From IMG/VR virus record IMGVR_UViG_3300025387_000013, positions 46,520 through 110,519 of that record: a stretch of 64,000 nt of DNA. One strand, 5' to 3'. The notes under the pieces are model-generated. The model searched no databases and was not told where the DNA came from. It was given only the letters and a program-made list of their open reading frames with translations. The translations under genes were made by a program, and so were the position numbers. Below, in pieces: positions 3,001 through 52,700 of the stretch; the stretch's first letter is position 1; every line of letters begins with the position of its first letter. This DNA is from a virus. Taxonomy: Duplodnaviria; Heunggongvirae; Uroviricota; Caudoviricetes.

Positions 3001-3201
3001 TGTTTGAGCAGGAGCAGATCTCATAACACCCCAAGGAAGTCCTCCAGAATTAGAACTAGCAGTATCACCTTGATAGATCGGTAATTTTCCTAAATTAGGA
3101 TCAATTGGTTTTGTATCTGGTGATCTAAGATCTACATCAGGAACTTGTAAGTTACTAAGTTTAACCCCTTGATCATTTATGTCATTATCAAAAATTGGCA
3201 T
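1..3201 (-). CDS. Giant virion protein, partial (N-terminus at 3201, continues beyond window start). Tape-measure-like or ejected-protein candidate with glycine-zipper segments.
   Basis: ATG at 3201-3199 overlaps the stop of the upstream gene as TAATG. No competing ORFs of 60 aa or more on the minus strand across 1..3200, and plus-strand ORFs here are short. The translation has GxxxG-rich hydrophobic stretches (GIVGGFIAGAAV, MFTGAMLGLVTGAI) and coiled-coil-like regions. Not in the ORF track because no stop lies inside the window. Confidence 0.5.
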   Translation of the reverse strand, partial: MPIFDNDINDQGVKLSNLQVPDVDLRSPDTKPIDPNLGKLPIYQGDTASSNSGGLPWGVMRSAPAQTGFDQPFSAVRGSELMENKRYPMYERNADLEDLYARQQPWYKQMGNGLVKMGVGAVGTFAQSMMTIPDTANAIKSGKLSDLSGGVDGGVESKVSDWMKNMEDVFPNYISNYERQHPFKSILGSGFSNFIGDKIFKNIGIVGGFIAGAAVQDAAVGLITEGLGEIPLLANQIGKASLALNKFLTGSNDVEKVLSALGESERIAGRVLTEEQIGNVIKSGQLAEATKLKDGLKYTLAQYGSARTMGAVDARDTYSEVSKKLVEQYKSTHGDNDPTGKDLDDIHEYATNAMNTRFGIDMVLLNISNAIQFDNLFKSFGKASKALASGATQDLEGLGKIGLKEGSLDEFVKQGAKTAPGKIWESVKPKLPNIFAESVLTMGGMFAGGKGVEDYYTNKYKDLNDPNNKETFNSVNQLIKSTQFALGQQFGTTEGLDAMFTGAMLGLVTGAIHNGIDRSKGMSKDQRLNEAINVLNKHKVTSVLEGRYSDTLNSVNNAKEMQEAVKENNIFKYKNLQHDNFFDFVNSRLQTGMHDYTIEQLKMLKDLPKEEFEKFFGVDFSESNKQTTSEYIDKLIEHANELKKSYDAISGTFKNPYERFVNPKTEAEKEATNNYHNFEEWKTNLTYYSSVKVDVNDRISSIQENLYKLHPDLNNNLVAGIVNPSVLKNIAEGYEERAKLLNGSIHDDMTAAERQSVKDQIKSLRTNSEKINLALNSKNIDAKTFHDILNFELNGQDGSREDAVGFEHAANLYEYGHDLNGLAIQKKKASLAVDALTSAEGFEKFFDLANKMNEDIRFNTKDFKETAPEEKPAAPAGGLGGAPEGPKFTNKEGAQEPIELNRQYESSSVGKSTIAKIDEDRWQITAPNGTVSFASTEAKAQLKANEFNQDAQDLSNLKVIAFNEDGTVKVEDANGDIQNIPIDQLKGFDRVETRQEKLLKHAEEVAKVQKELEISSGDIATGSDEEDIAKLLQSQTYEDSKKNASTSLFLGTTTESEDKTWSGVDKS

Positions 3202-5939
3202 TACTTACTCTTTTTTAATATGTCTTGAATTGTTGCAGGTCCAAAATCATTCTGAATATAGAATTGTATATCAGCGGCAGATCTATATCCACCTGTTTGT
3301 GGAGCTGGTATCCAAGTTCCTTTATAATTTACATATGCATTCACTTGAAATCTATCAGTATCCATATCTCCAGTGTTATGGTGAGGATCTCCAACAATAT
3401 CCCATCTCACTTTATTCTCCCATCCACTACCTTGTAATCCAGGTATTTCATATCCTCTATGAGCAGCTCCAAGAGCATCGGTTGATTTATCTCCTCTACC
3501 ACCCATAGTGTTTGTAGTGGCATCTGGACTTGCTAATACAGCATGAAAATCTTCATTGTAAGGATTTCCTTTAGCATAGTCTGGATAGTATTTGGCAAAG
3601 TTTTCAGCAGTGACAGGAATTGTTTGTGTAGCACTTCCTTGATGTACAATGATCATTGCTGAGCCATCATATTTTTTTACAACATTTGCTGTAACATCTT
3701 CTTTAGCATCTCCTGATTTAGACCTCATTTTAGCAAGAGTATCTACATCAAATTTAGCATCAGTAGGAAGATTAGGTAATCCTTTTGAAACAGTGGCATT
3801 ATCAATAGCATTACCAATCAAATTACCCAACATAGCCATGTCACGTTCGTTCTTTGGATTTATAGTTCCAACTTGTTCTTGATAGAAAGGATCGTATTTA
3901 GATACAGTTTTAGCTACAGCATCAAATTTATCTTTTTCAATTTTCTCTACAATAGGGTCTGCAACTTTTTTAACATCTGTTAGTTTATTAAGTACTACTC
4001 TTTCATTAGCAGTTAATGACTGTCCAGATGTTTGTTTAATTAATGCTTTAGCAAGATATTGTTTTGTAGGATCGCTACCAACTTCTTTTAAGAAGTTATT
4101 TACATTAAATTCAGGACTACGGTTTACAGTAGATCCCCCAACAGATATTGTAGATCCTGTACTAAGATTTCTTTGAAAGGCTGCTTGCACATCCCAAAGA
4201 TCTCTACCTGTAGCTAAAGATTGACCATTAGCTCCTGTAATTCCTTTTACATTAGATAAAGATTTGTTTAACTGTTCTTCAAAAGGTTGTGCAGCCTCCT
4301 CAGCTTTTTTTTGTATATTTGTTTGTATAGCTGCTTGTCTTTCGAAAAAGTCTCTCTTATGTACATACTCTAATGCATCTCTATTTGTTACAGCTCCATC
4401 TCCAGATTCTTTATATTTATTATAAATATCATCTAATCCAGAATATGTAACTTTTCCATCTTTACCAACAGTTGGTGTTAACTTGAGAGTCTTTCCATAA
4501 TCATTATTCAGCTTATCAGTATCCTTTAAAATACTAGAAATATTATCCTTTACACTATTTAATGTAGGAGCTGTCATCTCTGTAGATATAGCTCTAGTTT
4601 CAGTAACCATTCCTTGTTCTGGATGTTCTAATTTTAATTTTCTTTCATTATATTCACGAGTCCGTATATCATTAAGTTCTTTCTGTCTAAGAGAAGCGTA
4701 ATCATAAACAAGCTTATTCATAGCATCTGAATGCTGTATGTCATGATAGCGTATTTCTTCTTGAATCTTAGCACGTTCCATATTCATTGCTGCATAAGGA
4801 TTAGCTAGAATTTCTTGTTTATAACTTTGATTAGAAAGATCTACAGCATTTCCTTGTAATAATTTATTTGTGTATTGTTGGTATTTAATATTTTCTAAGT
4901 TAGCTGGATTTTGTAAATTAGCTAGTGTTTTATTTAGTTCTTTATCAAGATCTCCACTATCTAATTTATCTTGATACTTTTTAATATCAGCTTGTATACT
5001 AAGTTTATCACTTGTTGTTAAATTAGGACTTGTTAATAAATCTACGTTTAATTTATTTATCTCCCTACCTATCATTTCTTTACCTAATTGAACATTATCT
5101 GTAGCATCTTCAGCTAGTTTTTTAATTAAAGTATCGCCAGAATGTCCTTGATACTGTGCAGCAGCATCTATTTTCAATTGTTCAATATCATCTGCATTCA
5201 AAGAATCTTTAAACGAATTATACATAGCTTGAGCAGAAACACCTTTTATAGTAATTCTTTTCATAGCATTGTCTTCTACAGGTTTTCCTCCACTAGAAGG
5301 ATCAGTTGACGTTGTTATATTTCCAGTTTTCTCATCCTGTTTAAAGTATAATGTTTTTCCAGACTCATCTGTTTTATAAGGATTTTCAATAGAATTATCA
5401 GGAGCATCTTTCTTTCTATTGTCAGCTATGTTTTGTAACTTCTTAGCAATATCTACATAGTTTACATACTTAGCATTAAATGAAGCATTTACATCTTGAT
5501 TATTTTGATAGCTACTAACTTTGTTACGTATATCATTTATATTATTAATAGATGATTTTCCAGCTTTGTATGCAGCTTCTCCAGTTTCAAGTTCAGTCTT
5601 AGCTCTTTGCGTAGAATAAACAGCATTCTGTATAACAGGATCTTTAACAATTGATGTTGCCATCCCTCCTACAGAATTAACTAACTGTTGATTAGAGAAG
5701 TCTCCAGCAGCAACAGTTTTTAATTTACCACCAAGTTCATCAAGCTTAGATTGTAGATATTTCTTTTGAGTCTCATTGCCAATATCCATTCCAGCCACAT
5801 TATCTATTTGTGTCTGAATCTTTTGCACACCCTGATTGTATTGGGCCTGTTTTTCCATACCAACTTGTACCATAGCTTGTATGGGAAGTTGTGCTACGTA
5901 AGGAGTGAATGGGGTTAATTGATCGGTAAATGATGCCAT
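3201..5939 (-). CDS. Large virion structural or internal protein (912 aa)
   Basis: Long ORF in the late minus-strand operon, contiguous with the giant-protein cluster. No recognisable catalytic motif. Confidence 0.55.
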   Translation of the reverse strand: MASFTDQLTPFTPYVAQLPIQAMVQVGMEKQAQYNQGVQKIQTQIDNVAGMDIGNETQKKYLQSKLDELGGKLKTVAAGDFSNQQLVNSVGGMATSIVKDPVIQNAVYSTQRAKTELETGEAAYKAGKSSINNINDIRNKVSSYQNNQDVNASFNAKYVNYVDIAKKLQNIADNRKKDAPDNSIENPYKTDESGKTLYFKQDEKTGNITTSTDPSSGGKPVEDNAMKRITIKGVSAQAMYNSFKDSLNADDIEQLKIDAAAQYQGHSGDTLIKKLAEDATDNVQLGKEMIGREINKLNVDLLTSPNLTTSDKLSIQADIKKYQDKLDSGDLDKELNKTLANLQNPANLENIKYQQYTNKLLQGNAVDLSNQSYKQEILANPYAAMNMERAKIQEEIRYHDIQHSDAMNKLVYDYASLRQKELNDIRTREYNERKLKLEHPEQGMVTETRAISTEMTAPTLNSVKDNISSILKDTDKLNNDYGKTLKLTPTVGKDGKVTYSGLDDIYNKYKESGDGAVTNRDALEYVHKRDFFERQAAIQTNIQKKAEEAAQPFEEQLNKSLSNVKGITGANGQSLATGRDLWDVQAAFQRNLSTGSTISVGGSTVNRSPEFNVNNFLKEVGSDPTKQYLAKALIKQTSGQSLTANERVVLNKLTDVKKVADPIVEKIEKDKFDAVAKTVSKYDPFYQEQVGTINPKNERDMAMLGNLIGNAIDNATVSKGLPNLPTDAKFDVDTLAKMRSKSGDAKEDVTANVVKKYDGSAMIIVHQGSATQTIPVTAENFAKYYPDYAKGNPYNEDFHAVLASPDATTNTMGGRGDKSTDALGAAHRGYEIPGLQGSGWENKVRWDIVGDPHHNTGDMDTDRFQVNAYVNYKGTWIPAPQTGGYRSAADIQFYIQNDFGPATIQDILKKSK

Positions 5940-6025
5940 ATGAATAGAATTAGCAAATGTAATTTAAAATATTTTACATACCAAGAGAAATAACGATTTC
6001 AGTTAATTTGGTATAATCAGATTAA

Positions 6026-9000
6026 TTAGATAGTTTTTAGAGCTTTCACAATAGAACCATTTCTTGCCTTAAGCTTAGCACCGTTCTTTTTAGATGATGA
6101 TTCTTTAAGGTCTTCATCAGCAGATTCTTTACTACCATCATCTTTAACAAATGTAGGTTTTATTACCACCTTGTATCCAGGATAGGAACCTTTAGCTGTA
6201 CCAGAACCAATAGATCCATTACCTTCTGTATTGAACTGAGTAGGAGCATTAACATTGTAAATCTTTCCATTAGGTCCATATCTATAGTTGTATCTATTTT
6301 CTTCAATTCCTAATGTTCTATTTTCTAATTTGTTCTGAGCAATTTTAGAAGCAATAGATTGAAGAGCTTGTTGAGGTATTTCTTTAGATTTACTCTTAGC
6401 TATAGATTGTCTTTCATATTGTTTATCTAGAATACCTAAGTTTTGTAACTGAGCTTGATTCATCATCTCTCTGTTTCTATTGTAAGTTTGATCAGCTGCT
6501 CCTTGGTTCATTCTAAATTGTTCTCCTAACACTTTATTCTTCATCTCTGCTGCACTAGCCATAATTTGAGCTTGAGCTCCAGGGTTTCTTCCAGCAGCTC
6601 TTATAGCAGCGTTAGATTGTGCATCTATAGAGTTTAATTGATCTTGTAGAGAGATACGTGAAGGTTGTCCTTGTAACATTGGTTGGAATGTTTGAGCTTG
6701 AACAGGCTCTATTTGGTTATTACCTAATGCATACATCTCTCCCATCAACTGATTAGGATCTAAAGGCATTTGATTTGTAGGTCTAGCATAGTCAAATGCA
6801 CTAGAAATAGCATCTGTAATTGCAGTGTTTTTGTCACCTTTCTTTTTATCTTTAGTTGAGAAAACACCAGGAAGAGGACCTTGATCATCTATTAAATTAC
6901 CAGCCTTATCGTAATAATTACCATCTATTTGTTTAATGTTTCTTGGAGAAGATGTAATATTTACATCTGGTAAAACCCCTGGTTGATAAGGAATAGTTGT
7001 ATAATTATCATCTTGTAATAATCTTGGGACAATAGTAGAAATATCAAATTTAGGAGAGTTGCTTGGAGCAAGAACACCATCTTGGGCTTTATTAAGCTTA
7101 GCTCCCATTTTAGCTTGTTTTAAATTTCCTTTCATAACATCTTTATTAAACTTATCAGAGTCTTCATATCCATATTCTTTGGCTGTATCTAGAATAGCAT
7201 TCTGAACATGTGCTGCAGCTTTTAGTTTTTCTGCATTAGCTTTTTGTTTTGCTGTAGCTCCCATCAACATAGCCTTACCAGAATTCAAAGCAAGCTGATC
7301 AAATGGTGTATTTTCACCTGAGTTGTTTACAATACTTGTAGCTCTATTTATAATTTGATTTTGTTTCTTATCGTTCTTAGCTATATCAGTAGCATAGTGT
7401 TTGAACTTTCTTCCTTCTGCTAATTTATCACCTATCTCATCAATTGCCCATTTAGGAATCTGCATATTACCATATACTACAGCATCTCCATCTGTATTTC
7501 CACCATCTTCAAATTTAGGTATTTTAACAACAGGTTCTCCACCTTCCACTTCTATCTGATTGTTTCCAAATCTTGTAGGCATTCCTCCATCATCATGAGA
7601 AGGTCCTCTAAATATGTTTAGCTCTCCTAGATATGGATTGTGAGAAAGAGTTTCAATCTTACCACGTCCTACTTCTAGGTCACCACCCATAGCTAATTGC
7701 GAACCATCTTCAGCAATAGGCATCAATGGTCTTTCTGTAGAAAGAGCTCTTGCACTTGGGGCTACATAATCTTCTTTTAAATGTCCACCACTTCTTAGCA
7801 TATCTGCATCATGTGGAGGTTGTAAAAGATCTTTAAGAGAATATTCTCCAAACTTAGTAATGGTTTGTGGTTGCCATGTATGACTGTTCCATTTATATTC
7901 ATCTCCTACATCTCCACCATTTCTTAAACTTGCAGAATTTGCAGCTTGCATCATTTTTGCCCCAGCAGCCACAGCAGCTCTTTGTGTATTCTGTGTTGTT
8001 TGGTTTTGATAGTTTGCTAATTTTCTAGCATCATCATCACCACCGAATATATTACCTGCACCAGTTCCTAATAGTCCACCAACAACTCCACCAATAGGAC
8101 CAAAGAACGCAGAACCTACAGCACTACCTATTCCTTTACCAATACTAGCTTGTCCTGAAGATTGAAAGAAATCACTAAATCCAAAATCAGCTTTTGGCAA
8201 TTCACCACCCTCTTCGTATTGTTTAGGAGAACTTTCATTTAAAGGTTCATAACCAAGATCATTATATAGGTTGTTAGGAGCATAAGTGTTTTGTATCTCT
8301 GTTGGATTACCGCTTATTCTAGTTCCATATTGAGCTAAATAGTTTGTTCCTACACCTGTAGGACTTCCTAATTGTCCAGGTTGTACTAATTGATCTTCAG
8401 GTCGTACATATCTATTCTGTTGTTTCTGAGCACGACTACCAGCAGCTTGAGCTGTTAATGCAGAGATGTCAGCTGTTTGTTCAGCACCTAATATGTTTTG
8501 TTTTTGCTGTTTCATTTGTCCAATCCCCTGTAGAATTTGAGGAGCAGCATTTAATACACCAAGTCCAGCAGCTCCAGCACTTCCAGCAAAACTTTTACCA
8601 GCACCACCCATAATTTTATCTGCACTACCAGCACCACCAAATATATTTGCAAGTTCATTACCTACACCACCTTGTTTCTGCGTAGCTGTGCCAAGAGCAG
8701 TTCCAAATGATGTAAGATCAAAACCAGACTGAGCTTTCTTTAACCTCTTACCATTCTTACCAAAAGCTGCAGCTCCTATTTCACTTCCTGCATCTTGAAG
8801 AGCACTATTTGTTGCAGCTGTTTTAGCCTGTGAAGCAAATGTATTTAGCAATGAACCAATACCACTACCAGCATTACTAGCAGTAGCATTACGTTGCATA
8901 GCTGCTTGCATGGCTGCTTCTTTCTGTTGCTCATCATATTGAGCTCTACTAACACCAGTGTTTGTAGCTTGAGCATTTGCTAATAGATCATTGAAGGCCA

Positions 9001-9211: not shown

Positions 9212-12200
9212 TTATTTATATTTATCTAACCAACCACCATTTTTCTTTTCTTTAACTCCATATTGTGGAAGTACAACATGTTCTCCTTTAATATAAGGTC
9301 TTTGTATATTTTTTGGAATAACTCCTCTTTTAATTTGTTCATCTAATTCTGAATTTAGATATTTTGCAACCTCTTCAGGTTCATATCCATATCCTGATAA
9401 ATAACCCATTGTATTCATAGGTCTATATCCAAGAAATTGAGGACTTCCTTTATCATATTTGAAAACTTGTTTCATTTGGGGTAACCAAGAACTATGTGAA
9501 GTGTTTGTACTTCCTGTAAATACATCTCCAGAATTTATTCCTTCTGGAGCAAAGTTAACTTTTTTAGAAATATTTTTCAAACTACCTTCTGAACCTAACA
9601 TAAGAAGAGGTACTTTCTGTTGAACTTCTCCTGAATACGAAGGGTAGTCTTGTATTAAATTGTTTACAAATTCATTAATATTTTTTCTAGGTATAAGTTT
9701 ACTAGGTACACTAGCTATTTTAGGAATAATATTATCTGTTTTTCTAGGAGTAAATGGTTCTGGTCTAAAATCTCTAATTGCTTCATTAAGAATGTTTCTA
9801 ACTCTTTCACTTCTATCTACTCCTGATATAGGATCTATATAAGATTGTATTCTGGGTGCTCTGGCTCCATCTATTTCTTCATCTAAAGCATTCCATTCAG
9901 GAGTACCTGGTTGGTGACCATTTATAGGTCTTCTATAATATGGAATAACAGGGTCATTTGAAACATCTACAAAATCTCTATCAATATCAGAATCAGGACC
10001 TGTAGGAATAGTTCTTGATGGTTCTGATCTACTTAAGTTAAGTCTACTTCTTATTTCAGCACTTCTTGTAGCGTCTTGTTCTCCAAATCCTGAATTTAAT
10101 AAATTTTGTGCTTCTTCTCTTGATTTACCAAATACTTTCTGAAAATGATTTTCTGGAAGTTTATTTTCTAAAGCATATTTCATTTGATCTGATAGAGAAG
10201 ATCTTGTTGATTTCAATCTTCCAATTTCTTGAACCTGTCTAAGAGCTTTTACATCTTCTATACCCATTCTTGGTAATGTACTTTCTAAAGGAATTCCTCC
10301 AATACGACCAATTGCTTCTTTTATATTTTTTGCTCTTGGTAAATCACTTGCTATAGCTCCTAATTCTTTTATTGAGTTAGATGCTCCAGGAATCTCAGAT
10401 AATGCAGGAAGTATACTTAAGGTATTTGCTCCTGCTTGTAATAATTCTCCTCTACTAATATTTCCAGGTATTTTATTAATAGCATCTATATAATTTACTG
10501 GATTAACTATATCGGTAGCATGTTCTAATATATTTCTAGGTCCTCTGTCAAAATGTTCAGGAATATTTTTTCCTTTTACTTTATATTCTAAAGCAGTCAT
10601 TGGATTCTTAGCTATAGCCCAAGCTTTATCTACAGCTGATCTAGGTTCTTCTATTTTAGATATAGTAGCTCTATTATTAAATTTATTTTGATTTTCAATA
10701 TTTTTTTCAAGAGTTAATCTATTTTCTATATCAGATTGAGAAGGAGTTCCTGGCTGTGTTTCATATTTACCTAACCAACCATTTTGTGCCTGTGGATACT
10801 CTGTCACCTTCTTACCTTTGAACTTATAATCTTTTCCAGGCTTCATAAGCTTTGTATCCCCTGTGTCACTAACACCAAGAACAGGATAATCCACTCCTTG
10901 CATTGTGATGTTGTTAGAACCTATCTCTGTTATCTCTCCTGGATGTGCCCATTGACCTCTGTCATCTTTTATAACAGAACCATTCTCACTAATTGTTTTA
11001 GGAGTCCAATCAAGACTGTTCTGATAGAATTTCATTTCTCCACCATTCTGAAATGCAGGAGTGTTCTCTACAATAGTCCTAATTCTAGGATCTTTCTTAA
11101 TGATATTATCTCTAACATCCACCACTCTATTTCCATAAACAGGATTTTTATTCATGTTTATTGGATGTTTGCTAACATCTATACCATAGTAAAACTTAGT
11201 GTTGTCTTCACTCTTTGGTGTAATATGTCCATATCCATTCCAAGATTGAAGAACATCAGCGTCACCTTTTTTAAGGAGATGTTTCTGTGCATAATTTGTT
11301 TTTTGACCAAGCATGTCCATAAACATATCAACTTGATCACCCTTATACTTTGTATTTAATTTTTCAAAGTTATCATCATAAGCTCTACTTAAATGAAAAG
11401 GATTTTCTGGACCAGCTTCACTATTACCAATCCCACTTTCTTCATAAGCCATACCTAAAGCTGTATAAGGATCTTTACCAAATTTTTTAGCTGAACCTAC
11501 TATTTTTTTAACAAGATTAGTATCAATTCCTTTTTCATATTCTAGTTTATTTTGATCAGTGATAGGATTACCAGAAGCTTTATCAATCTTTCTAGTGTCC
11601 TTTATCTCAAGAATAGGATGTACTAATGGTGATGCTGTTGGGTCAAATTGATCATTAAATTGATAGCCTGAACCTTTGAATTTTGTAGCATCCATAAATG
11701 TACCATTCTGTGCAGAAGCTTTTGTCTTCTTAGCATATTTACCATTAGAAGGAGCAGGGTTCTGTGTACGTGCGTACATCATTCCTGTTGCTCCTGGTAG
11801 AGAACCACCCATTTGAAACTGTCCACCCCATGCAGGAGAATAATCTCTACCCTTTGTGTTATATCCAAGACCTACAAAATCAGGACCTGTAGAAACTTGA
11901 GCATCATTGTAATTACCATGTTTACCATAGTTGTCTGCTTTCTTTTCTAATAACCTACCACCTTGTTCAAACCTATCTAACCATCCACCATTCTCTTTCT
12001 TAGGTTCATCTTTTAGCTGTTGAAACTTTTTTGTAGTGTTATCGGTCCAATGACCATCTGTAGCTTCAAGGGCTTTGAATGCTCTTGTCACTTTACTATG
12101 TGTAATTATATCATCACTCTTAGGAGCAGCTTTTACCATCTCATAAGCTTTCTCCATTCTATCTTTAAAACTATCAAATGACTCTCCACCAGGAACAGCT

Positions 12201-46441: not shown

Positions 46442-46885
46442 ATGCCTACAATAGATATTCCAGATAAAATATGTCCTCATTGTGGTGGTACTAGATATAT
46501 AATTGAGAATCGAAAGAAACCAACTAAGTCTAATCCTAATAATGTTAGAATTAGATATAGATGTGTAGTTAAATCAAATGAAAGATATGCTAAATGGGCT
46601 ATAAATAATTTTGATAAACTTAAAGCATATAGAGAAAACTATATACCACATCCTAAACCAAAGGGATATTGGAAAACTCCTGAAATGAAAGAGCATTATA
46701 GATTAAAACATAAAAGAGAGTCTGAACAGCTCACTGATAATTTTGTTAAAAACAAAATATTAGGTGACTCAGGCAGTTTAGCAAGAACAAACTTATCATT
46801 TAAAGATATAACACCAGAACTTGTAGAACTTAAGCGTAAACAAATACAACTGTATAGAAGATTAAAACAAAATGGCAGCAGTTAA
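46442..46885 (+). CDS. Zn-ribbon protein, paralogue A (147 aa)
   Basis: N-terminal ICPHCGGTRY and C-terminal PELVELKRKQIQLY, both shared with the next ORF. Confidence 0.5.
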   Translation: MPTIDIPDKICPHCGGTRYIIENRKKPTKSNPNNVRIRYRCVVKSNERYAKWAINNFDKLKAYRENYIPHPKPKGYWKTPEMKEHYRLKHKRESEQLTDNFVKNKILGDSGSLARTNLSFKDITPELVELKRKQIQLYRRLKQNGSS

Positions 46886-47288
46886 TATACCAGACAGAAT
46901 ATGTTCACATTGTGGTGGCACTAAATGGAATTTGAAATATCTAAAAAAAAAATTAGCCTCAGGAGAATTTAAAACATATGAAATATATGTATGTTCTAAA
47001 AAACAATTAGAGCAACAAACCAGATATAAGTATAAGAATATTAGTAAATACAGAAAAAAATACAGAGAGTCTATAAAAAATAGAAGAAAAACTGATAAGG
47101 CTTTTGCTAATAAACTTTGTCAAATTCATAAAACTGTTGTTAATAATTTACCTGATTGGTATATACGTAAAATTTTAACAGATAATTCTGATTTAACTTC
47201 CTCAGATATACCACAAGAACTTGTAGAATTAAAACACAAACAATTATTATTAACAAGAACAATTAAAAATCAAACAAATGGCAACTAA
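46872..47288 (+). CDS. Zn-ribbon protein, paralogue B (138 aa)
   Basis: N-terminal ICSHCGGTKW and C-terminal QELVELKHKQLLL. Tandem paralogue of 46442..46885. Confidence 0.5.
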   Translation: MAAVNIPDRICSHCGGTKWNLKYLKKKLASGEFKTYEIYVCSKKQLEQQTRYKYKNISKYRKKYRESIKNRRKTDKAFANKLCQIHKTVVNNLPDWYIRKILTDNSDLTSSDIPQELVELKHKQLLLTRTIKNQTNGN

Positions 47289-47984: not shown

Positions 47985-48455
47985 GGGGCTGTTATTGGTA
48001 ATTGATCCGTATGAGAATGGTAGTATCACATGCAAGACTAGGAGGAGTCAAACAACCTCTAAACAATAACCGCAAAGACTAAATCTGAGCGTGTTGCAGA
48101 AGGTGGAGCAATCATTGCTTCTCTTTTTGCTGGTCGTGTAGCAGTTGCTGCATAACCTAACGGAGTGGTAACAACTTGGCAACAGAAAGTTACAATGTGT
48201 GAAGACTAGACGAATTTTGGCTCGTGATTTTAGAGCTTACACAGTAGTATGCCAATACTACAAAATGTTTTCTTGGTAGTCATAAAACCAAGTGGTGGCA
48301 GTGTTGTACTTAACCGTACGACCCCAATACGGTGCAATTAGTAAGCTTATAAGCTGACTAATAGTACAAAGTTGTCAGGCTATAAGCTGACTAAGCATGT
48401 AAGAATGGTATTATGATTACTTACGGAGACAGGGGTTCGAATCCCCTCAGCTCCA
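47985..48455 (+). ncRNA. ssrA: tmRNA (ssrA), complete and phage-encoded
   Basis: 5' GGGGCUG pairs with 3' CAGCUCC-A and includes the G3:U wobble (Ala identity). The 3' region CUGACUAAGCAUGUA...GGAGACAGGGGUUCGAAUCCCCUCAGCUCCA closely parallels E. coli tmRNA (..GACUGACUAAGCAUGUAGUACCGAGG..GGACGCGGGUUCAACUCCCGCCAGCUCCACCA). AAACAAUAACC-GCA resume context matches E. coli AAAAAAUAGUC-GCA. Tag ORF 48072..48152 (27 codons, AKTKSERVAEGGAIIASLFAGRVAVAA) with stop at 48153-48155. Confidence 0.8.
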
Positions 48456-48461
48456 CAACAG

Positions 48462-48533
48462 TCTCAGGTAGCTCAATTGGTAGAGCCTTTAATTGTATTA
48501 AAGAGTGTGTGGGTTCAAATCCCATCCTGAGAC
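48462..48533 (+). tRNA. tRNA, probable Thr (UGU). Anticodon assignment is tentative.
   Basis: Acceptor TCTCAGG/CCTGAGA, D-arm GCTC-AATTGGTA-GAGC with G18G19, anticodon stem CTTTA/TAAAG with loop ATTGTAT, T-arm GTGGG-TTCAAAT-CCCAT and discriminator C. No encoded CCA. 72 nt, position 26 apparently absent. Confidence 0.6.
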
Positions 48534-48548
48534 CTAAATTAAACAATT

Positions 48549-48695
48549 ATGAAACAGTTATTAGCAATTTTATTAATTAGTGGATTAGCCAGTTGTGCTA
48601 CAAATATGTATGCATATAGAAAATGTCCTACAAATGACAAAAGATATTTTTATAATGAAATGGGTGCTAAAGTTCCTAAAGCATTTAGAAAATGA
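48549..48695 (+). CDS. Small lipoprotein (48 aa)
   Basis: MKQLLAILLISGLASC has a signal peptide and lipobox L-A-S-C. The stop overlaps the polymerase ATG (ATGA). Below the ORF-track size cutoff. Confidence 0.35.
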   Translation: MKQLLAILLISGLASCATNMYAYRKCPTNDKRYFYNEMGAKVPKAFRK

Positions 48696-49676
48696 ATGTA
48701 CTTATATATGATATAGAAACATTAAAGGAGCTGTTCCTTGTTGTTATTTATAATCCACAAACAGATGTTACATATGAATTTGCTGTAAGTAAATGGAATA
48801 ATCAATTAGATCCTTTCATTAGATTTACAGAACAACATGAAGACTATTATTGGGTAGGATATAACAATCTACGCTTTGATAGTCAAGTGGTTGAATATAT
48901 TATTAGAAACTATGAAGATTGGCAAACATTGAGTGGATTAGAGATATGTGCTAAAATAGCATTAAAAGCCTCTGATACCATTCATGATGCTAATTATGAT
49001 GTATTTCCTGAATATAGAGAAGAAGCTCTTAGTCTAAAACAAATAGACTTATTTAGAGTGAATCACTATGATAATAAGAATAGACGTGTTAGCTTAAAGA
49101 GATTGGAGTTTGAAATGGATCTTGAGAACATTGAAGAGATGCCTATTCATCATGAAAAGATTGATATGTCCAAAGAAGACATAGAAACTACTATCAACTA
49201 TTGTCACAATGATGTTATGGCTACTTATGAGTTTTATAAGGTGACTATTGGTGAAACTAATCATCCTCTGTATAAGGGCAATAACCAAATAGCTCTTAGA
49301 CAGGATATACAAGAAGAGTTTGGTATTCCTTGTTTGAACTATTCAGATAGTAAAATAGGGGATGAAATGATTAAGAAGTTTTATTGCCAGGAAAAGAACA
49401 TACAATACACTGCTCTACCAAAAAAAGGTACATTCAGAAAGAAAATCAGTGTAAAAGAATGTATTGCACCATATGTAGAGTTTATAACAGATGAGTTACA
49501 GCAGTTCTTAAAGAAGATTAGAAGAATGAATCTTACAATACAAGATGATTTCAAAGAGAGTTTACATTTCTATAATAATGTATACACATTTGCAAAAGGT
49601 GGTCTTCATACAGAAAATAAACCTAAAGTGTTTGAAGCTAGTGAGGATACATTTATTATTGATTGGGATGTTTCGT
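48692..49676 (+). CDS. Family B DNA polymerase, exon 1 (3'-5' exonuclease domain to start of motif A)
   Basis: Exo I (LIYDIETL) and Exo III-like (YCHNDVMATYEFY) motifs. Ends ..IIDWDVS, the first half of Pol B motif A DxxSLYPS. 5' splice site after U49676 is predicted from P1 pairing GUUUCGU/GCGAAAC with a terminal U-G. The ORF track runs on to an in-intron stop at 49696. Confidence 0.65.
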
Positions 49677-50632
49677 TAACAATATGGCGAAACTAAAATT
49701 CCTTAAATTGACGGGAACCTCCTTAGAGCTTAATCTACCAAATTACAGTAGAAATACATATAGTGGCTGAAATAATTACTCAGGTATGGTAAAAAAGATT
49801 AAGATTGGACAATCCGCAGCCAAGGGTCTATAGTGAAATAGATCAAGGTTCAGAGACTAAACAGGGAACTTTAACTATTAATTAATTTAAGTGCCTTGGT
49901 TCTATCCATGTAATTACATATATTTGTAACATGAAATTAGATAGAAAACAAGACTTAAACCGAAGTGGTATATATTGTATAAGAAACAAAGTAAATAATA
50001 AAGTTTACATAGGAAAAGCTGTATGTGTTTATAGAAGGATCAGACAACATATCAATAATCTGAATAAAAAAAACAGAAAAGAAGAAAATGATCATCTTAT
50101 AAATGCTTGGCATAAATATGAAAGAGAAAATTTTGAATACTTTGTATTAGAATATGTATCAATTGACCAATTAAAAGAACAAGAACTATATTGGCAAAAA
50201 ATCTACAAGTGTACTGATAGAAGTAAAGGATATAATTTTAGAGAAGATTCTGAAACAGGTTGTATTGTTTCTACAGAAACAAGAAAAAAACTTAGTGAGG
50301 CTCAAATTAAAAGATTTTCTGATCCAAAAGAAAGACTAAAATCTAGTCATACTCATTGGAAAGATAATCCAGAAGCTACTAAAGAAATGGCAAAAAAAGT
50401 TTCAGAAGCTAAAGTAAAATATTACATTGATCAGTATAGTAAAGATGGAAAATTTATAAAAAGATGGAATTCTGTAAAAGAAATTACAGAACAAAATCCT
50501 TCTTATAAATGGCAGCAAATATACTCAGTTTGTTCAGATCACAAACCTTCTATGTATGGGTTTGTCTGGAAAAAAGAATTAATAGTTAAATGATGATATA
50601 GTCCAGCTATAGTTGAAAGATTATAGATTAAG
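49677..50632 (+). mobile_element. Group I intron carrying a GIY-YIG homing endonuclease, interrupting the DNA polymerase gene
   Basis: Conserved core elements: P-like AAATTGACGGGAAC (about 49712), Q AATCCGCAGC (about 49813-49822), R GGTTCAGAGACTAAAC (about 49847-49862) and S GATGATATAGTCC (about 50596-50608). IGS GGCGAAAC. P9 hairpin CUAUA..UAUAG. Terminal G50632. P10 CAUA/UAUG. Confidence 0.7.
49931..50593 (+). CDS. GIY-YIG homing endonuclease (220 aa), intron-encoded
   Basis: SGIYCIRNKVNNKVYIGKA ... YRRIRQH ... N (GIY-10aa-YIG with R and H), then a basic DNA-binding tail. Lies between the R and S elements. Confidence 0.75.
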   Translation: MKLDRKQDLNRSGIYCIRNKVNNKVYIGKAVCVYRRIRQHINNLNKKNRKEENDHLINAWHKYERENFEYFVLEYVSIDQLKEQELYWQKIYKCTDRSKGYNFREDSETGCIVSTETRKKLSEAQIKRFSDPKERLKSSHTHWKDNPEATKEMAKKVSEAKVKYYIDQYSKDGKFIKRWNSVKEITEQNPSYKWQQIYSVCSDHKPSMYGFVWKKELIVK

Positions 50633-51600
50633 CATACTATCCAGCTATTATTATTAACAATGAACAATATCCTGCACATTTAGGAAAAGAATTCTTAAGA
50701 GGATATAAGACAATGTTTGATAAGAGATTGGAACTTAAGCCTTTAGCTAAGAAAGATAAGAAGATAGCAGGTATTGTTGGTGCTCTTAAACTTGCTGTAA
50801 ACTCTGTATATGGTAAGAGTTCTGATATGCAGAATTGGATTTATGACAGAAGGCTTACCATGTTTACCACTATTACAGGTGAATTGAGTCTTTTAATGTT
50901 AATAGAACAATATGAACTACGTGGAATTCATGTTATTTCAGCTAATACAGACGGTGTCACTATAATGGTGAAAAAAGAGCAATTAGAAATAATGAAAGCC
51001 ATCAATACGTGGTGGATGGATATTACTAAATATGAGCTAGAACGCACAGACTATCAAAAGATTACATTCTCAACAGTTAATGATTATCTAGCTATTAAAA
51101 CTAATGGAGATGTTAAAAAAAAAGGTGATTTTCTCACAGATTTTGAACTACATAAAAATAAATCTGCTAGGATTGTGCCTATGGCTCTTGAGCAGTATTA
51201 TGTTAACAATATTCCTATTGCTGACACTATTACCAATCATACTAATATATATGACTTTGCGTTAAGACAGAAAGCTAGTAAGGATTTCCATTATGAAGGA
51301 CTTACAGATATTAGTAAAACAGTGTACAATAAGCTAATTCGTTATTACATATCTAAAACAGGAGAGAAACTGTTGAAGGTTAAGAATGAGAATTCTGATT
51401 CTAATGCAGCTAATATTAGTCAGGTGGAAGCAGGAGAATGGGTGATGACAGTGTGTAATCATTTAACACAAGATCATCCTCTTAACAATATCAATTATAC
51501 ATATTATATAGAAAGAGCTCAAAGAATCATTGATAAGATACAATATGAGGGTAGAAAAAAGAAAGTCAATATTGACAAAAATCAACTTTCCTTATTTTAA
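50633..51600 (+). CDS. Family B DNA polymerase, exon 2 (motif A second half YYPAIII, motif B KLAVNSVYGK, motif C-like ISANTDGV)
   Basis: The frame stays open upstream of the first Met (50713) to 50632. KxxxNSxYG motif B is present. The 3' splice site assignment is inferred. Confidence 0.6.
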
Positions 51601-51610
51601 AACAAACAAC

Positions 51611-51985
51611 ATGACACACAAAGAAGCTAAAGAACTTTCAATGAAGTCCAGATGGAAAACAACACCATGTGGTCAAGAAAAGTGTTGGTGTTTAATGATT
51701 GAGCCTGAAACACCTATTAAGTATGATGAAGTAGAAGAATATTATATAGCAGGTAGTGGATGCATTGCAAAAGAAGAAGCAGAACATATCGTTAAACTAC
51801 ATAATCAAGCCCTTCAATCAGAAAGTGAAAGAATGTATGAAATAGAATTTGATAGAGGATTAAAAACTGTAATACAAGTTACAGATAGTGGTATTAAAAT
51901 CATTTCAGCAGTAGATGGCTGGGGTTGTAATATTGAAGATGAATTTATTACTATCCAATCCCTTCCTAAAACACCTAAAATATAA
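51611..51985 (+). CDS. Hypothetical Cys-containing protein
   Basis: ORF 51530..51985 in the track. A likely start at MTHKEAKEL lies just after the polymerase stop. Confidence 0.4.
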   Translation: MTHKEAKELSMKSRWKTTPCGQEKCWCLMIEPETPIKYDEVEEYYIAGSGCIAKEEAEHIVKLHNQALQSESERMYEIEFDRGLKTVIQVTDSGIKIISAVDGWGCNIEDEFITIQSLPKTPKI

Positions 51986-51989
51986 TAAC

Positions 51990-52700
51990 ATGGACGAAAG
52001 AGATTATCAAGCAATGAATAAACAACCTAAATCAGAATCAAGGATGTATTCAGAGGATGAAGTAATAGGATTTGGTATATGGTTAGGGGAAAAGTATTGG
52101 TTTAATCTTTCCACTTATAAATGGGAGTGTAGAAATGAAGAAGGATTATACGAGGTTCTTGATTCAAAACAATTAATGGAATTATATCGCCAATCCCTTC
52201 AACCAAAGACAGAAGAACTCAAAGAAGGATTAAAACCATGTCCTAATCACCCTGATGTACTTACAAGTCAATGTGGAATATGTAATGGTACTTTCCCTAA
52301 ACTACAACAACCAAAGACAGAAGAAGTAGAAAGAGGATGGACTATAACAGACAGAACAGTAATTGATAAACAATTAGAAGCTATAAAAACTGTCATGGGT
52401 ACTATTAAAACTAAAGAACAAGCAATTCAATTCCTAAAAGATGCAGGTATTGAATTAGAAGAACAACCTTCCCCATCCATAAAGAAGGAAGATAAAATAT
52501 CTAAACTAACATTCGATAAAGAGATAAGTCAATGGGTAGACATTTATAGTTATGAATTAGGATTAATAAAAGGGAAGGAAGAAGGCTACAAAGTTAACAA
52601 CTCATTGGATATAGCTATTGCCCATTATGAAAAACTATCAGAAGAAGGGAGTAATCAGGCTTATGTAGTAGCAAAATATTTAAAAACATTAAAACCGTAG
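51990..52700 (+). CDS. Hypothetical protein whose C-terminal domain is paralogous to 52977..53366
   Basis: ORF track start is 51915, but ATG 51990 (MDERDYQ) lies after the upstream stop. Internal QPKTEE repeat. C-terminus PSPSIKK..GYKVNNSLD..HYEK..LKTLKP. Confidence 0.45.
   Translation: MDERDYQAMNKQPKSESRMYSEDEVIGFGIWLGEKYWFNLSTYKWECRNEEGLYEVLDSKQLMELYRQSLQPKTEELKEGLKPCPNHPDVLTSQCGICNGTFPKLQQPKTEEVERGWTITDRTVIDKQLEAIKTVMGTIKTKEQAIQFLKDAGIELEEQPSPSIKKEDKISKLTFDKEISQWVDIYSYELGLIKGKEEGYKVNNSLDIAIAHYEKLSEEGSNQAYVVAKYLKTLKP

What the first reader, a model, noticed from the sequence alone, without database searches (positions are those of the whole stretch)
49677..50632. Group I intron with GIY-YIG homing endonuclease splitting family B DNA polymerase exactly within motif A
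The canonical group I core elements Q (AATCCGCAGC), R (GTTCAGAGACTAAA) and S (GATATAGTCC) are present, with a P-like element. A GIY-YIG ORF lies between R and S. Both flanking ORFs carry Pol B motifs: Exo I/III upstream, KxxxNSxYG downstream.

The exon 1 frame ends ..DWDVS. The exon 2 frame is open back to 50633 and reads YYPAIII, reconstituting motif A (DxxS-YPxII). The proposed junctions, 5' after U49676 and 3' after G50632, satisfy the U-G P1 pairing, the omega-G, the P9 hairpin and the P10 pairing, and they keep the frame.
Basis: partly seen in the sequence, partly recalled or inferred. Interest (0 to 1): 0.65.

Follow-up and report, generated by a model that had tools for sequence, protein, structure and literature searches.

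The report
Mobile self-splicing intron in phage polymerase
A phage DNA polymerase gene is interrupted, inside its catalytic motif A, by a group I intron that carries its own GIY-YIG homing endonuclease; the call is correct and well supported, but this is a familiar kind of mobile element.

Summary
Window 49677-50632 is a 956-nt group I intron.

- **Splice product.** Joining 49676 to 50633 gives a 650-aa protein. It is 100% identical to a protein encoded by uninterrupted genes on two other metagenome contigs, which are 99% identical in exon DNA.
- **Polymerase family.** A profile of this polymerase family matches solved family B polymerases (E 2.6e-9). The split Ser codon (T|CA) aligns to the Ser of DxxSLYPS.
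- **Rfam.** The window intron scores only 42.6 + 16.4 bits against Rfam's Intron_gpI because the endonuclease ORF sits in the P8 loop and splits the match. An ORF-less 291-nt relative at the same codon scores 93.7 bits (threshold 50).
- **Covariation.** I collected 29 loci with an intron at this exact codon, in polymerases 26-100% identical. In 17 distinct introns, 96% of cells pair, against 33-40% in slid controls. 43 of 76 pairs show compensatory changes, including P1 and P10 tracking the exon sequence.
- **Endonuclease.** The ORF is I-TevI-like (TIGR01453, 77.7 bits).

Splicing and homing themselves are inferred, not shown. This is a new member of a known kind. Gene callers and default Rfam scans miss it.

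The parts
48692..49676 (+). Exon 1 of the polymerase gene: 328 codons plus the first base (T) of Ser329. Carries ExoI DIE, ExoII NNLRFD, ExoIII YCHND and the start of motif A (DWDVS).
   Evidence: 99.7% DNA identity to intron-less L001/L002 over 48488-49671.
49677..50632 (+). Group I intron, 956 nt. Starts UAAC and ends with omega-G50632.
49670..49693 (+). P1. Exon GUUUCGU (49670-49676) pairs with the internal guide GCGAAAC (49687-49693), with a U49676.G49687 wobble at the 5' splice site. Loop 49677-49686.
   Evidence: 4 of 7 pairs show compensatory changes across homologues; the U.G is invariant in 17/17.
49683..49686 (+). P10 guide UAUG, pairing with the first four bases of exon 2 (CAUA, 50633-50636).
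   Evidence: 3 of 4 pairs are compensatory across homologues. Relatives have CACAAU/AUUGUG, CGAUGU/ACAUCG and CAAUGU/ACAUUG.
49699..49704 (+). P3 5' strand UUCCUU, pairing with AGGGAA at 49863-49868.
49709..49715 (+). P4 5' strand UG(A)CGGG with bulged A49711, pairing with UCCGCA at 49813-49818 (the 'P' and 'Q' elements).
49720..49809 (+). P5 (UCC/GGA) plus a roughly 85-nt peripheral extension. P5a is 49729-35/49797-803, P5a' is 49736-39/49788-91, P5b is 49742-47/49759-64 (one C.A mismatch in the window), and P5c is 49767-70/49780-83.
   Evidence: These helices have the most compensatory changes.
49820..49848 (+). P6 (CC/GG) and P6a (GGUCUAU/AUAGAUC).
49855..49859 (+). P7 5' strand GACUA within the R element, pairing with UAGUC at 50599-50603 (S element). 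This is the inferred guanosine-binding helix.
   Evidence: Invariant in all 17 introns, so no covariation evidence either way.
49870..49883 (+). P8 5' strand UUUAACUAUUAAUU. It forms a perfect 14-bp helix with 50577-50590. The endonuclease ORF fills the P8 loop.
   Evidence: 5 of 7 tested pairs are compensatory in relatives.
49886..49959 (+). Hairpin enclosing the endonuclease start codon (AUG 49931-49933) and its first 9 or so codons.
   Evidence: MFE -18.8 kcal/mol. The same stem is predicted in relatives. The consensus has 12 pairs, 2 of them compensatory. Support is modest.
49931..50593 (+). GIY-YIG homing endonuclease gene (220 aa), I-TevI-like. Its last four codons and the first base of its stop codon form the 3' strand of P8.
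   Evidence: Pfam PF01541. phrog_314 and phrog_7168 'homing endonuclease'. TIGR01453, 77.7 bits against a cutoff of 56.05. I-TevI catalytic domain 1MK0/1LN0, E 1.4e-5. 148 homologues.
50577..50590 (+). P8 3' strand AAUUAAUAGUUAAA.
50599..50603 (+). P7 3' strand UAGUC.
50607..50626 (+). P9 hairpin CUAUAGU-UGAAAG-AUUAUAG.
   Evidence: 5 of 7 pairs are compensatory.
50633..51600 (+). Exon 2. Begins CA, completing Ser329, then reads YYPAIII. Carries motif B KLAVNSVYG and motif C ANTDG. Stop codon at 51598-51600.
   Evidence: 98.9% DNA identity to L001.

Best explanation
Window 49677-50632 is a mobile group I intron inserted after the first base of the Ser329 codon in motif A (DxxS|xYP) of a divergent family B DNA polymerase gene of an uncultured phage.

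Inferred mechanism:
1. The pre-mRNA folds into the P1-P10 ribozyme.
2. An external guanosine attacks after U49676, which is held in P1 by the guide GCGAAAC.
3. P10 (UAUG:CAUA) aligns exon 2 and omega-G50632 enters the P7 pocket.
4. The exons are ligated to an mRNA for a 650-aa polymerase.

The intron's P8 loop encodes an I-TevI-like GIY-YIG endonuclease. During mixed infection this enzyme is expected to cut intron-less polymerase alleles near the insertion site. Repair from the intron-bearing genome would then copy in the intron together with a few flanking exon bases.

Two features suggest that endonuclease translation is restrained so that it does not prevent ribozyme folding. The endonuclease start codon sits in a conserved hairpin, and the end of its ORF forms one strand of P8.

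Shown: the intron anatomy, the covariation, the exact junction, and presence/absence polymorphism between near-identical genomes. Inferred: splicing activity, endonuclease activity and target, and translational control.
For: **Junction**
- Splicing 49676|50633 gives a 650-aa protein that is 100% identical to P0001. P0001 is encoded by uninterrupted genes on L001 and L002.
- Exon DNA is 99.1% identical to L001. All 18 differences are synonymous, and 5 of them lie at -5..-2 and +1 of the junction.
- No other in-frame junction within about 12-19 nt of each boundary gives this sequence.
- The window's junction bases (GTT TCG T|CA) are those that pair with its own guide in P1 and P10. The intron-less allele (GTG AGT T|CC) would not pair.
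- Intron-less alleles use many different Ser codons at this position. Intron-bearing alleles of this clade nearly all read TCG T|CA (two closely related loci have T|CG).

**Ribozyme**
- RF00028 hits at 49696-49869 (42.6 bits, E 3.3e-9, P3-P7) and 50591-50623 (16.4 bits).
- The ORF-less 291-nt homologue at the same codon in L122 scores 93.7 bits over the full model.
- 29 loci have the intron at the same codon phase. In every one, exon 1 ends in T, the intron starts TA and the intron ends in G.
- The covariation test on 17 distinct introns gave 96.2% paired cells against 33-40% when slid. 43 of 76 pairs have double changes, and 0 of 500 shuffles reached the observed values.

**Host gene**
- The spliced protein hits phrog_1252 'DNA polymerase' in one stretch, residues 2-639, E 1.7e-139.
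- The family profile hits only family B polymerases in the PDB, and motifs A, B and C align.
- No start codon exists in the exon 2 frame before 50713.

**Endonuclease**
- Supported.
- Homologues sit in the same exon1-HEG-exon2 layout.
Against: - No RNA data: splicing is not observed.
- The window intron does not reach Rfam's gathering score as a single hit (42.6 against 50) and is invisible in a 64-kb E-value scan.
- P7 is invariant, so it has no covariation support.
- P5b has a C.A mismatch in the window.
- Endonuclease activity, cleavage site and homing are untested.
- The start-codon hairpin has only 2 compensatory pairs.
Confidence: 0.93

Rival explanations
1. The polymerase is genuinely split into two subunit genes with a free-standing GIY-YIG endonuclease gene between them. 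No RNA splicing occurs.
For: Gene callers on related contigs call three separate ORFs of 333-335 aa, 218-225 aa and 237-332 aa. Split phage polymerase genes without a recognised intron have been reported, for example in OM43 phages (PMC10580990).
Against: A complete, covarying ribozyme lies exactly between the two halves. P1 and P10 covary with the flanking exon bases in polymerases 26-100% identical. An ORF-less 291-nt version interrupts the same codon. The break lies inside the motif A strand, and exon 2 has no start codon for 27 codons. The precise join reproduces an existing uninterrupted protein residue for residue.
Confidence: 0.02
2. The intron splices, but its endonuclease is no longer an active homing enzyme. 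On this view it is degenerate, or retained for another role such as a maturase-like function or interference with competing phages, and the intron is now inherited vertically.
For: Homing endonucleases commonly decay after fixation (general knowledge). The window HEG has no identical copy in the protein collection, and the best match is 85% identical. An ORF-less derivative exists (L122). L057 is an intron-less allele that carries the intron-type junction, which suggests a cycle of gain and loss. An intron endonuclease acting in phage competition has been reported (PMC11620839, abstract seen).
Against: The ORF is full length. By inspection, and by analogy with I-TevI recalled from memory, the GIY and YIG motifs and the Arg, Glu and Asn positions are present. 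It passes TIGR01453. 148 full-length homologues at 42-85% identity are retained. Intron presence and absence differ between genomes that are 99% identical, as expected for recent mobility.
Confidence: 0.15
3. The element is a decayed, non-splicing intron remnant and the polymerase gene is a pseudogene.
For: The Rfam score for the window copy is sub-threshold. There is one mismatch in P5b.
Against: All core helices are intact in the window. Both exons are open and 100% identical in protein to the intact gene. The low Rfam score is explained by the 693-nt P8 loop, since the ORF-less homologue scores 93.7 bits.
Confidence: 0.02

Closest known systems
Phage T4 td intron with I-TevI (GIY-YIG)
   Same: A group I intron in an essential phage DNA-metabolism gene. 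The endonuclease has the I-TevI type of catalytic domain (1MK0/1LN0 E 1.4e-5; TIGR01453). The ORF lies in a peripheral loop and its start is embedded in RNA structure. The delayed translation of I-TevI is recalled from memory, not checked here.
   Different: The host gene is a polymerase, not thymidylate synthase. The ORF lies in P8, whereas I recall P6a for td. The window intron has no room for P2 or for P7.1/P7.2, which typify the IA2 phage introns, and it has a large P5 extension. Subgroup assignment was not tested with subgroup-specific models.
Group I introns in phage DNA polymerase genes (SPO1 and HMU phages, Bastille I-BasI, T7-like phages, cyanophage Pf-WMP3 I-PfoP3I)
   Same: A self-splicing intron with a homing endonuclease interrupting a conserved part of the phage replicative polymerase gene (PMC3984707 reference list; PMC3428280 abstract; PMC10580990).
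   Different: At least some of these endonucleases are HNH nicking enzymes, for example I-PfoP3I (title and abstract). That those polymerases are family A is recalled from memory and was not verified here. Here the host is a divergent family B enzyme and the endonuclease is GIY-YIG.
Group I introns in PolB genes of crAss-like phages (Delta and Zeta groups)
   Same: Group I introns inserted in phage PolB, recognised through their endonuclease domains (PMC7886860).
   Different: That is a different phage lineage and a different PolB clade. The paper gives no RNA structure or exact codon in the text I read. Here the junction is fixed to one nucleotide and supported by an intron-less allele.
Inteins at conserved positions of archaeal and Mimivirus family B polymerases
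   Same: Selfish elements target the most conserved active-site motifs of PolB. There are three fixed positions close to the active site (PMC549080).
   Different: Those elements are protein-splicing, not RNA-splicing. Whether one intein position coincides with the motif A Ser used here is only my recollection and was not checked.
Tetrahymena-type group I core consensus (P, Q, R, S elements)
   Same: The window's P, Q, R and S strings are almost the classical consensus, and RF00028 aligns them.
   Different: The window intron lacks P2, P2.1 and the long P9 extensions. The resemblance to Tetrahymena itself is from memory.

Membership tests
Group I intron (Rfam RF00028) | Covariance-model score at or above the curated gathering score (50 bits) | tested here: inconclusive
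   The window gives two separate hits of 42.6 and 16.4 bits, split by the ORF in P8, and nothing at gathering. The ORF-less homologue at the same codon (L122) scores 93.7 bits over the full model.
Group I intron (Rfam RF00028) | P1 formed by the 5' exon end and an internal guide, with a U.G wobble at the splice site | tested here: met
   GUUUCGU/GCGAAAC with U49676.G49687. The U.G is present in 17/17 introns, and 4 of 7 pairs are compensatory.
Group I intron (Rfam RF00028) | Terminal omega-G and P10 pairing with the 3' exon | tested here: met
   G50632 is the last base, and all 29 loci end in G. P10 is UAUG/CAUA, with 3 of 4 pairs compensatory.
Group I intron (Rfam RF00028) | Conserved core P3-P9 including the P3/P7 pseudoknot, supported by covariation | tested here: met
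   96.2% of cells pair against 33-40% in slid controls. 43 of 76 pairs show double changes and 0 of 500 shuffles reach the observed values. P7 itself is invariant.
Group I intron (Rfam RF00028) | Guanosine-dependent self-splicing | not testable with these tools
   Requires an in-vitro transcript or RNA-seq.
GIY-YIG homing endonuclease (I-TevI-like) | GIY-YIG catalytic domain | tested here: met
   PF01541, 35.5 bits against a cutoff of 22.6. TIGR01453 'group I intron endonuclease', 77.7 bits against 56.05. I-TevI catalytic domain, E 1.4e-5.
GIY-YIG homing endonuclease (I-TevI-like) | Encoded within a peripheral loop of a group I intron | tested here: met
   The ORF 49931-50593 lies in the P8 loop, and P8 closes at 49870-83/50577-90.
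GIY-YIG homing endonuclease (I-TevI-like) | Site-specific cleavage of the intron-less allele and homing | not testable with these tools
   Indirect evidence only: presence/absence polymorphism between 99%-identical genomes, and a recoded junction.
Family B DNA polymerase | Match to Pfam DNA_pol_B (PF00136) | tested here: not met
   No Pfam polymerase hit for the spliced protein even at E<=1. NCBIfam gives none either.
Family B DNA polymerase | Profile similarity to solved family B polymerases | tested here: met
   The A2 profile gives archaeal PolB E 2.6e-9, and also hits Pol alpha, Pol II and Pol epsilon. No family A hits appear.
Family B DNA polymerase | Motifs ExoI-III, A (DxxSLYPS), B (KxxxNSxYG) and C (DTDS) | tested here: met
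   Invariant columns are D7 and E9; N58 and D63; Y170 and D174 (D174 is nearly invariant); D326, S329, Y331 and P332; K381, N385 and G389; and N433, T434, D435 and G436. Motif C reads NTDG, so the first Asp is replaced by Asn.
Family B DNA polymerase | PolB-type 3'-5' exonuclease domain (PF10108) | tested here: inconclusive
   5 of 11 family members hit PF10108 (best E 4e-5). The window's own protein does not.

The most novel reading that the evidence does not exclude
The motif A intron may be one mobile lineage that has moved horizontally between family B polymerase genes as little as about 26-30% identical. It always lands after the first base of the same invariant Ser codon and retunes its P1 and P10 guides to each host. 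Its architecture (no P2, no P7.1/P7.2, large P5 extension, near-classical P/Q/R/S) may differ from the IA2 type usual in phages. Related cores occur in giant-virus bins and in viral contigs with more than a dozen back-to-back introns. That would point to a large pool of group I introns shared across virus realms that has gone unrecognised.
Probability: 0.3. Interest if true: 0.45.

Novelty: new member of a known kind. Interest (0 to 1): 0.3.

Why it matters
**Annotation.** The essential polymerase of this phage group is routinely called as two 'hypothetical' ORFs plus an endonuclease. Rfam at its default threshold misses the intron. Recognising the intron restores a single 650-aa enzyme.

**A natural experiment.** The window and L001/L002 differ by presence or absence of the intron at 99% identity. 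They also show a 5-base synonymous recoding exactly where P1 and P10 form. This is a clean example of how an intron and its exon context travel together. It also gives a ready substrate pair for mapping the endonuclease site.

**Biology.** It adds another case of selfish elements targeting the catalytic motifs of replicative polymerases. No new principle is involved.

Tried and rejected
- **Direct family searches on the spliced protein.** Pfam, NCBIfam and single-sequence PDB searches gave no polymerase family. The family B assignment needed an 11-sequence profile.
- **MFE folding.** Folding a mini-intron recovers P1, P6a, P8 and P9 but not the P3/P7 pseudoknot. I did not use it as evidence.
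- **ARAGORN.** It finds only tRNA-Thr and not the tmRNA that Rfam reports.
- **RecA hits.** The top PDB 'hits' of the endonuclease to fused RecA chains are repeated weak matches of 5-7 bits each, with 0 stretches passing on their own. I disregarded them.
- **IMG/VR relatives.** The 80 best IMG/VR relatives of the polymerase were all uninterrupted. Intron-bearing loci had to be found through the endonuclease and a core DNA pattern.
- **Intein and group II readings.** I rejected an intein because there are in-frame stop codons at both junctions and no Hint domain was detected. I rejected a group II intron because there is no such Rfam match and the core is clearly group I.
- **Structure prediction.** Not run, because the profile-to-PDB result already settled the family.
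- **Intron subgroup (IA/IB/IC).** Not assigned, because no subgroup-specific models are available here.
- **P8 register.** The window and L188 are one column out of register with the majority in alignment A1. The one search counts therefore slightly understate P8 pairing for those two rows. The window's own P8 is a perfect 14-bp helix.

Full report
**1. What is in the sequence**

The region holds three co-directional ORFs.
- 48692-49696 is 334 aa and ends ..IIDWDVSLTIWRN*.
- 49931-50593 is 220 aa.
- 50713-51600 is 295 aa. Its frame is open back to 50632 but has no ATG/GTG/TTG before 50713.

The middle ORF is a GIY-YIG protein. It matches Pfam PF01541 at 35.5 bits, PHROG 'homing endonuclease' families, TIGR01453 'group I intron endonuclease' at 77.7 bits against a cutoff of 56.05, and the I-TevI catalytic domain in the PDB at E 1.4e-5.

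- Q at 49811-49820
- R at 49848-49861
- S at 50595-50604
- a P-like element at 49706-49718

**2. The junction**

Joining 49676 to 50633 gives a 1953-nt ORF of 650 aa that reads ..IIDWDVS-S-YYPAIII... This product matches phrog_1252 'DNA polymerase' in a single stretch, residues 2-639, E 1.7e-139.

The decisive result came from the 5.8-billion-protein search. It returned P0001, which is 650 aa and 100% identical over 100% of the query. P0001 is encoded by uninterrupted genes on two independent contigs, L001 (ENA) and L002 (JGI).

The window's joined exons are 99.08% identical in DNA to L001. All 18 differences are synonymous. Five of them sit at -5, -4, -3, -2 and +1 of the junction: intron-less GTG AGT T|CC TAC against the window's GTT TCG T|CA TAC.

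blastn shows that the two genomes align at 99.7% up to 49671 and resume at 50635. The 956-nt element is therefore a clean presence/absence polymorphism. Among in-frame junctions within about 12-19 nt of each boundary, only 49676|50633 gives the P0001 sequence.

**3. The ribozyme**

Rfam at gathering threshold reports no intron. A local E-value scan gives Intron_gpI at 49696-49869 (42.6 bits, E 3.3e-9; P3, P4, P5, P6 and the 5' strand of P7) and at 50591-50623 (16.4 bits; P7' and P9). The match is split because the ORF lies in the P8 loop.

I wrote out the helices and checked each in the window:

| Helix | Window coordinates | Note |
|---|---|---|
| P1 | 49670-76 / 49687-93 | U49676.G49687 wobble |
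| P10 | 49683-86 / 50633-36 | |
| P3 | 49699-704 / 49863-68 | |
| P4 | 49709-15 / 49813-18 | bulged A |
| P5 | 49720-22 / 49807-09 | |
| P5a-c | within 49729-49803 | roughly 85-nt extension |
| P6/P6a | 49820-48 | |
| P7 | 49855-59 / 50599-603 | |
| P8 | 49870-83 / 50577-90 | 14 bp, perfect |
| P9 | 50607-13 / 50620-26 | |
| omega-G | 50632 | |

There is no room for a P2 between the guide sequence and P3. There is also no room for P7.1/P7.2 between P3' and P8.

**4. Comparative test**

Homologues of the endonuclease number 148, with the best at 85% identity. On other contigs they lie in the same exon1-HEG-exon2 layout.

A core DNA pattern fetched more viral contigs. tblastn with P0001 then showed 29 loci, the window included, in which the polymerase is broken exactly at residue 328/329. 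These polymerases are 26-100% identical to the window's. In every one, exon 1 ends in T, the intron starts TA (TAA in 28 of 29) and the intron ends in G. The joined reading is DxxS-xYP (WDVSSYYPA, ADIGSQYPN, SDIASLYPN, ADVGSMYPN and others).

One locus, L122, carries an ORF-less 291-nt intron at this codon. It scores 93.7 bits against RF00028 over the whole model.

I aligned 17 distinct mini-introns, replacing the P8 loop with GAAA, and counted pairs for my structure:
- 96.2% of cells pair, against 33-40% when the 3' partner is slid by 1-3 columns.
- 43 of 76 pairs carry changes on both sides.
- 0 of 500 column shuffles reach any observed measure.

P1 and P10 covary with the exon sequence. Examples are AUUGGGU/GCCCAAU, AUUGCGU/GCGCAAU and GUUUCCU/GGGAAAC for P1, and CACAAU/AUUGUG and CGAUGU/ACAUCG for P10. 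This independently fixes both splice sites. P7 never varies, so it is neither supported nor contradicted.

**5. The host gene**

Neither Pfam nor NCBIfam recognises the spliced protein. A single-sequence PDB search finds nothing.

tblastn finds relatives at about 30% identity in 913 GenBank phage records, including Sashavirus, Proteus, Vibrio, Nitrincola and Rheinheimera phages. Most are single-piece genes annotated 'DNA polymerase'.

I built a profile of 11 diverse members. It hits only family B polymerases in the PDB: archaeal PolB at E 2.6e-9, then Pol alpha, Pol II and Pol epsilon. The alignments place iiDaDvaSlYPniii on vyLDFRSLYPSIII, KLalNSvYG on KILANSVYG, and saNTDG on YSDTDG.

The invariant columns give ExoI, II and III and motifs A, B and C. 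Motif C reads NTDG. So the gene is a divergent family B polymerase, and the intron splits the Ser codon of motif A.

**6. Mobility signals**

In 86 uninterrupted relatives, the two Ser codons at the site use many synonymous combinations (TCC AGT, AGT TCC, TCT TCT, AGC AGT and others). Intron-bearing alleles of this clade nearly all read TCG T|CA, the version that pairs with the intron's own guide (two closely related loci have T|CG).

One intron-less locus, L057, carries exactly the intron-type junction. This would be expected after precise intron loss.

Together with the 99%-identical intron-plus and intron-minus pair, this fits recent gain or loss with co-conversion of a few flanking bases. 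Homing itself is inferred.

**7. Endonuclease expression**

This section is inferred. The AUG at 49931 lies in a hairpin spanning 49886-49959 with an MFE of -18.8 kcal/mol. The same stem is predicted in relatives. The consensus has 12 pairs, only 2 of them with compensatory change.

The last four codons of the ORF and the first base of its stop codon form the 3' strand of P8. A ribosome finishing the ORF would therefore unwind P8. Both features suggest that translation and ribozyme folding compete on the same RNA and that translation is kept low. I recall this being described for I-TevI, but I did not check that source.

**8. Comparison with known systems**

Group I introns with homing endonucleases in phage DNA polymerase genes have been known since SPO1. 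They are listed for Bastille, T7-like phages and Pf-WMP3. Group I introns in PolB of crAss-like phages have also been reported (PMC7886860). Inteins occupy fixed active-site positions of archaeal and Mimivirus PolB (PMC549080).

The present element is therefore a new member of a known kind. Its particulars are the GIY-YIG enzyme in P8, the motif A Ser codon, a P2-less architecture with an extended P5, and a wide spread across divergent PolBs. I found no description of them in the literature searches I ran. Those searches cover open-access text only.

**9. Verdict**

[quoted passage not shown] Interest is modest (0.3): the case is very clean and useful for annotation, but it is not surprising.

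Noticed in passing
window 47985-48534 (+): A tmRNA (RF00023, 70.9 bits, E 1.4e-25) spans 474 nt against a 374-position model, with large inserts. A tRNA-Thr(UGU) follows at 48462-48534. Both lie just upstream of polymerase exon 1. ARAGORN reports the tRNA but not the tmRNA. The region is conserved in L003.
   Followed up: partly
L202 4854-5139; L154 about 9485-10588 (-); L163 about 5337-6440 (-): Some relatives that carry the motif A intron have a second interruption at polymerase residue 389/390, right after motif B NSVYG. In L202 it is a 286-nt ORF-less group I intron of a different type (RF00028 31.2 bits, E 5.4e-6, full model). In L154 and L163 the insertion is about 1.1 kb. The window lacks it.
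   Followed up: partly
L122 4245-4535: An ORF-less 291-nt version of the same intron sits at the same Ser codon, in a polymerase only about 35% identical. It scores 93.7 bits against RF00028.
   Followed up: yes
L057 about 3976-3990: An uninterrupted polymerase gene, 74% identical in protein, carries exactly the intron-type exon junction GATGTTTCGT|CATAC. Other intron-less alleles use other Ser codons. This is a candidate for precise intron loss.
   Followed up: partly
L114 (IMGVR_UViG_3300034096_001425) 660-8954 (-); L140 2653-8824 (-); L205 689-6596 (-): Viral contigs fetched by the generic core pattern hold dense runs of full-length group I introns above Rfam's gathering score: 14 in L114, 9 in L140 and 4 in L205. 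Some are separated by only about 40-160 nt; the sequence profile adds further sub-threshold core matches. A few HNH-like or GIY-YIG-like ORFs lie among them. The host gene or genes are not identified.
   Followed up: partly
loci L102, L111, L117, L124, L135, L165, L166, L168, L173 (GVMAG contigs): The Q..R core pattern CAATCMGCAGCCAAG..GGTTCANMGACTAAAC also matches giant-virus metagenome bins. The same core type is therefore widespread beyond phages.
   Followed up: no
window 51601-52030: Directly downstream of the polymerase, the window has about 430 nt where L001 has about 110 nt. This stretch overlaps ORF 51530-51985 (151 aa). It is a second indel between otherwise 99%-identical genomes.
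   Followed up: no
window 46442-47288 (+): Two adjacent ORFs of 147 and 138 aa look like a tandem duplicate. Both start ..IPD[KR]IC.HCGGT.. and end ..ELVELK[RH]KQ...
   Followed up: no
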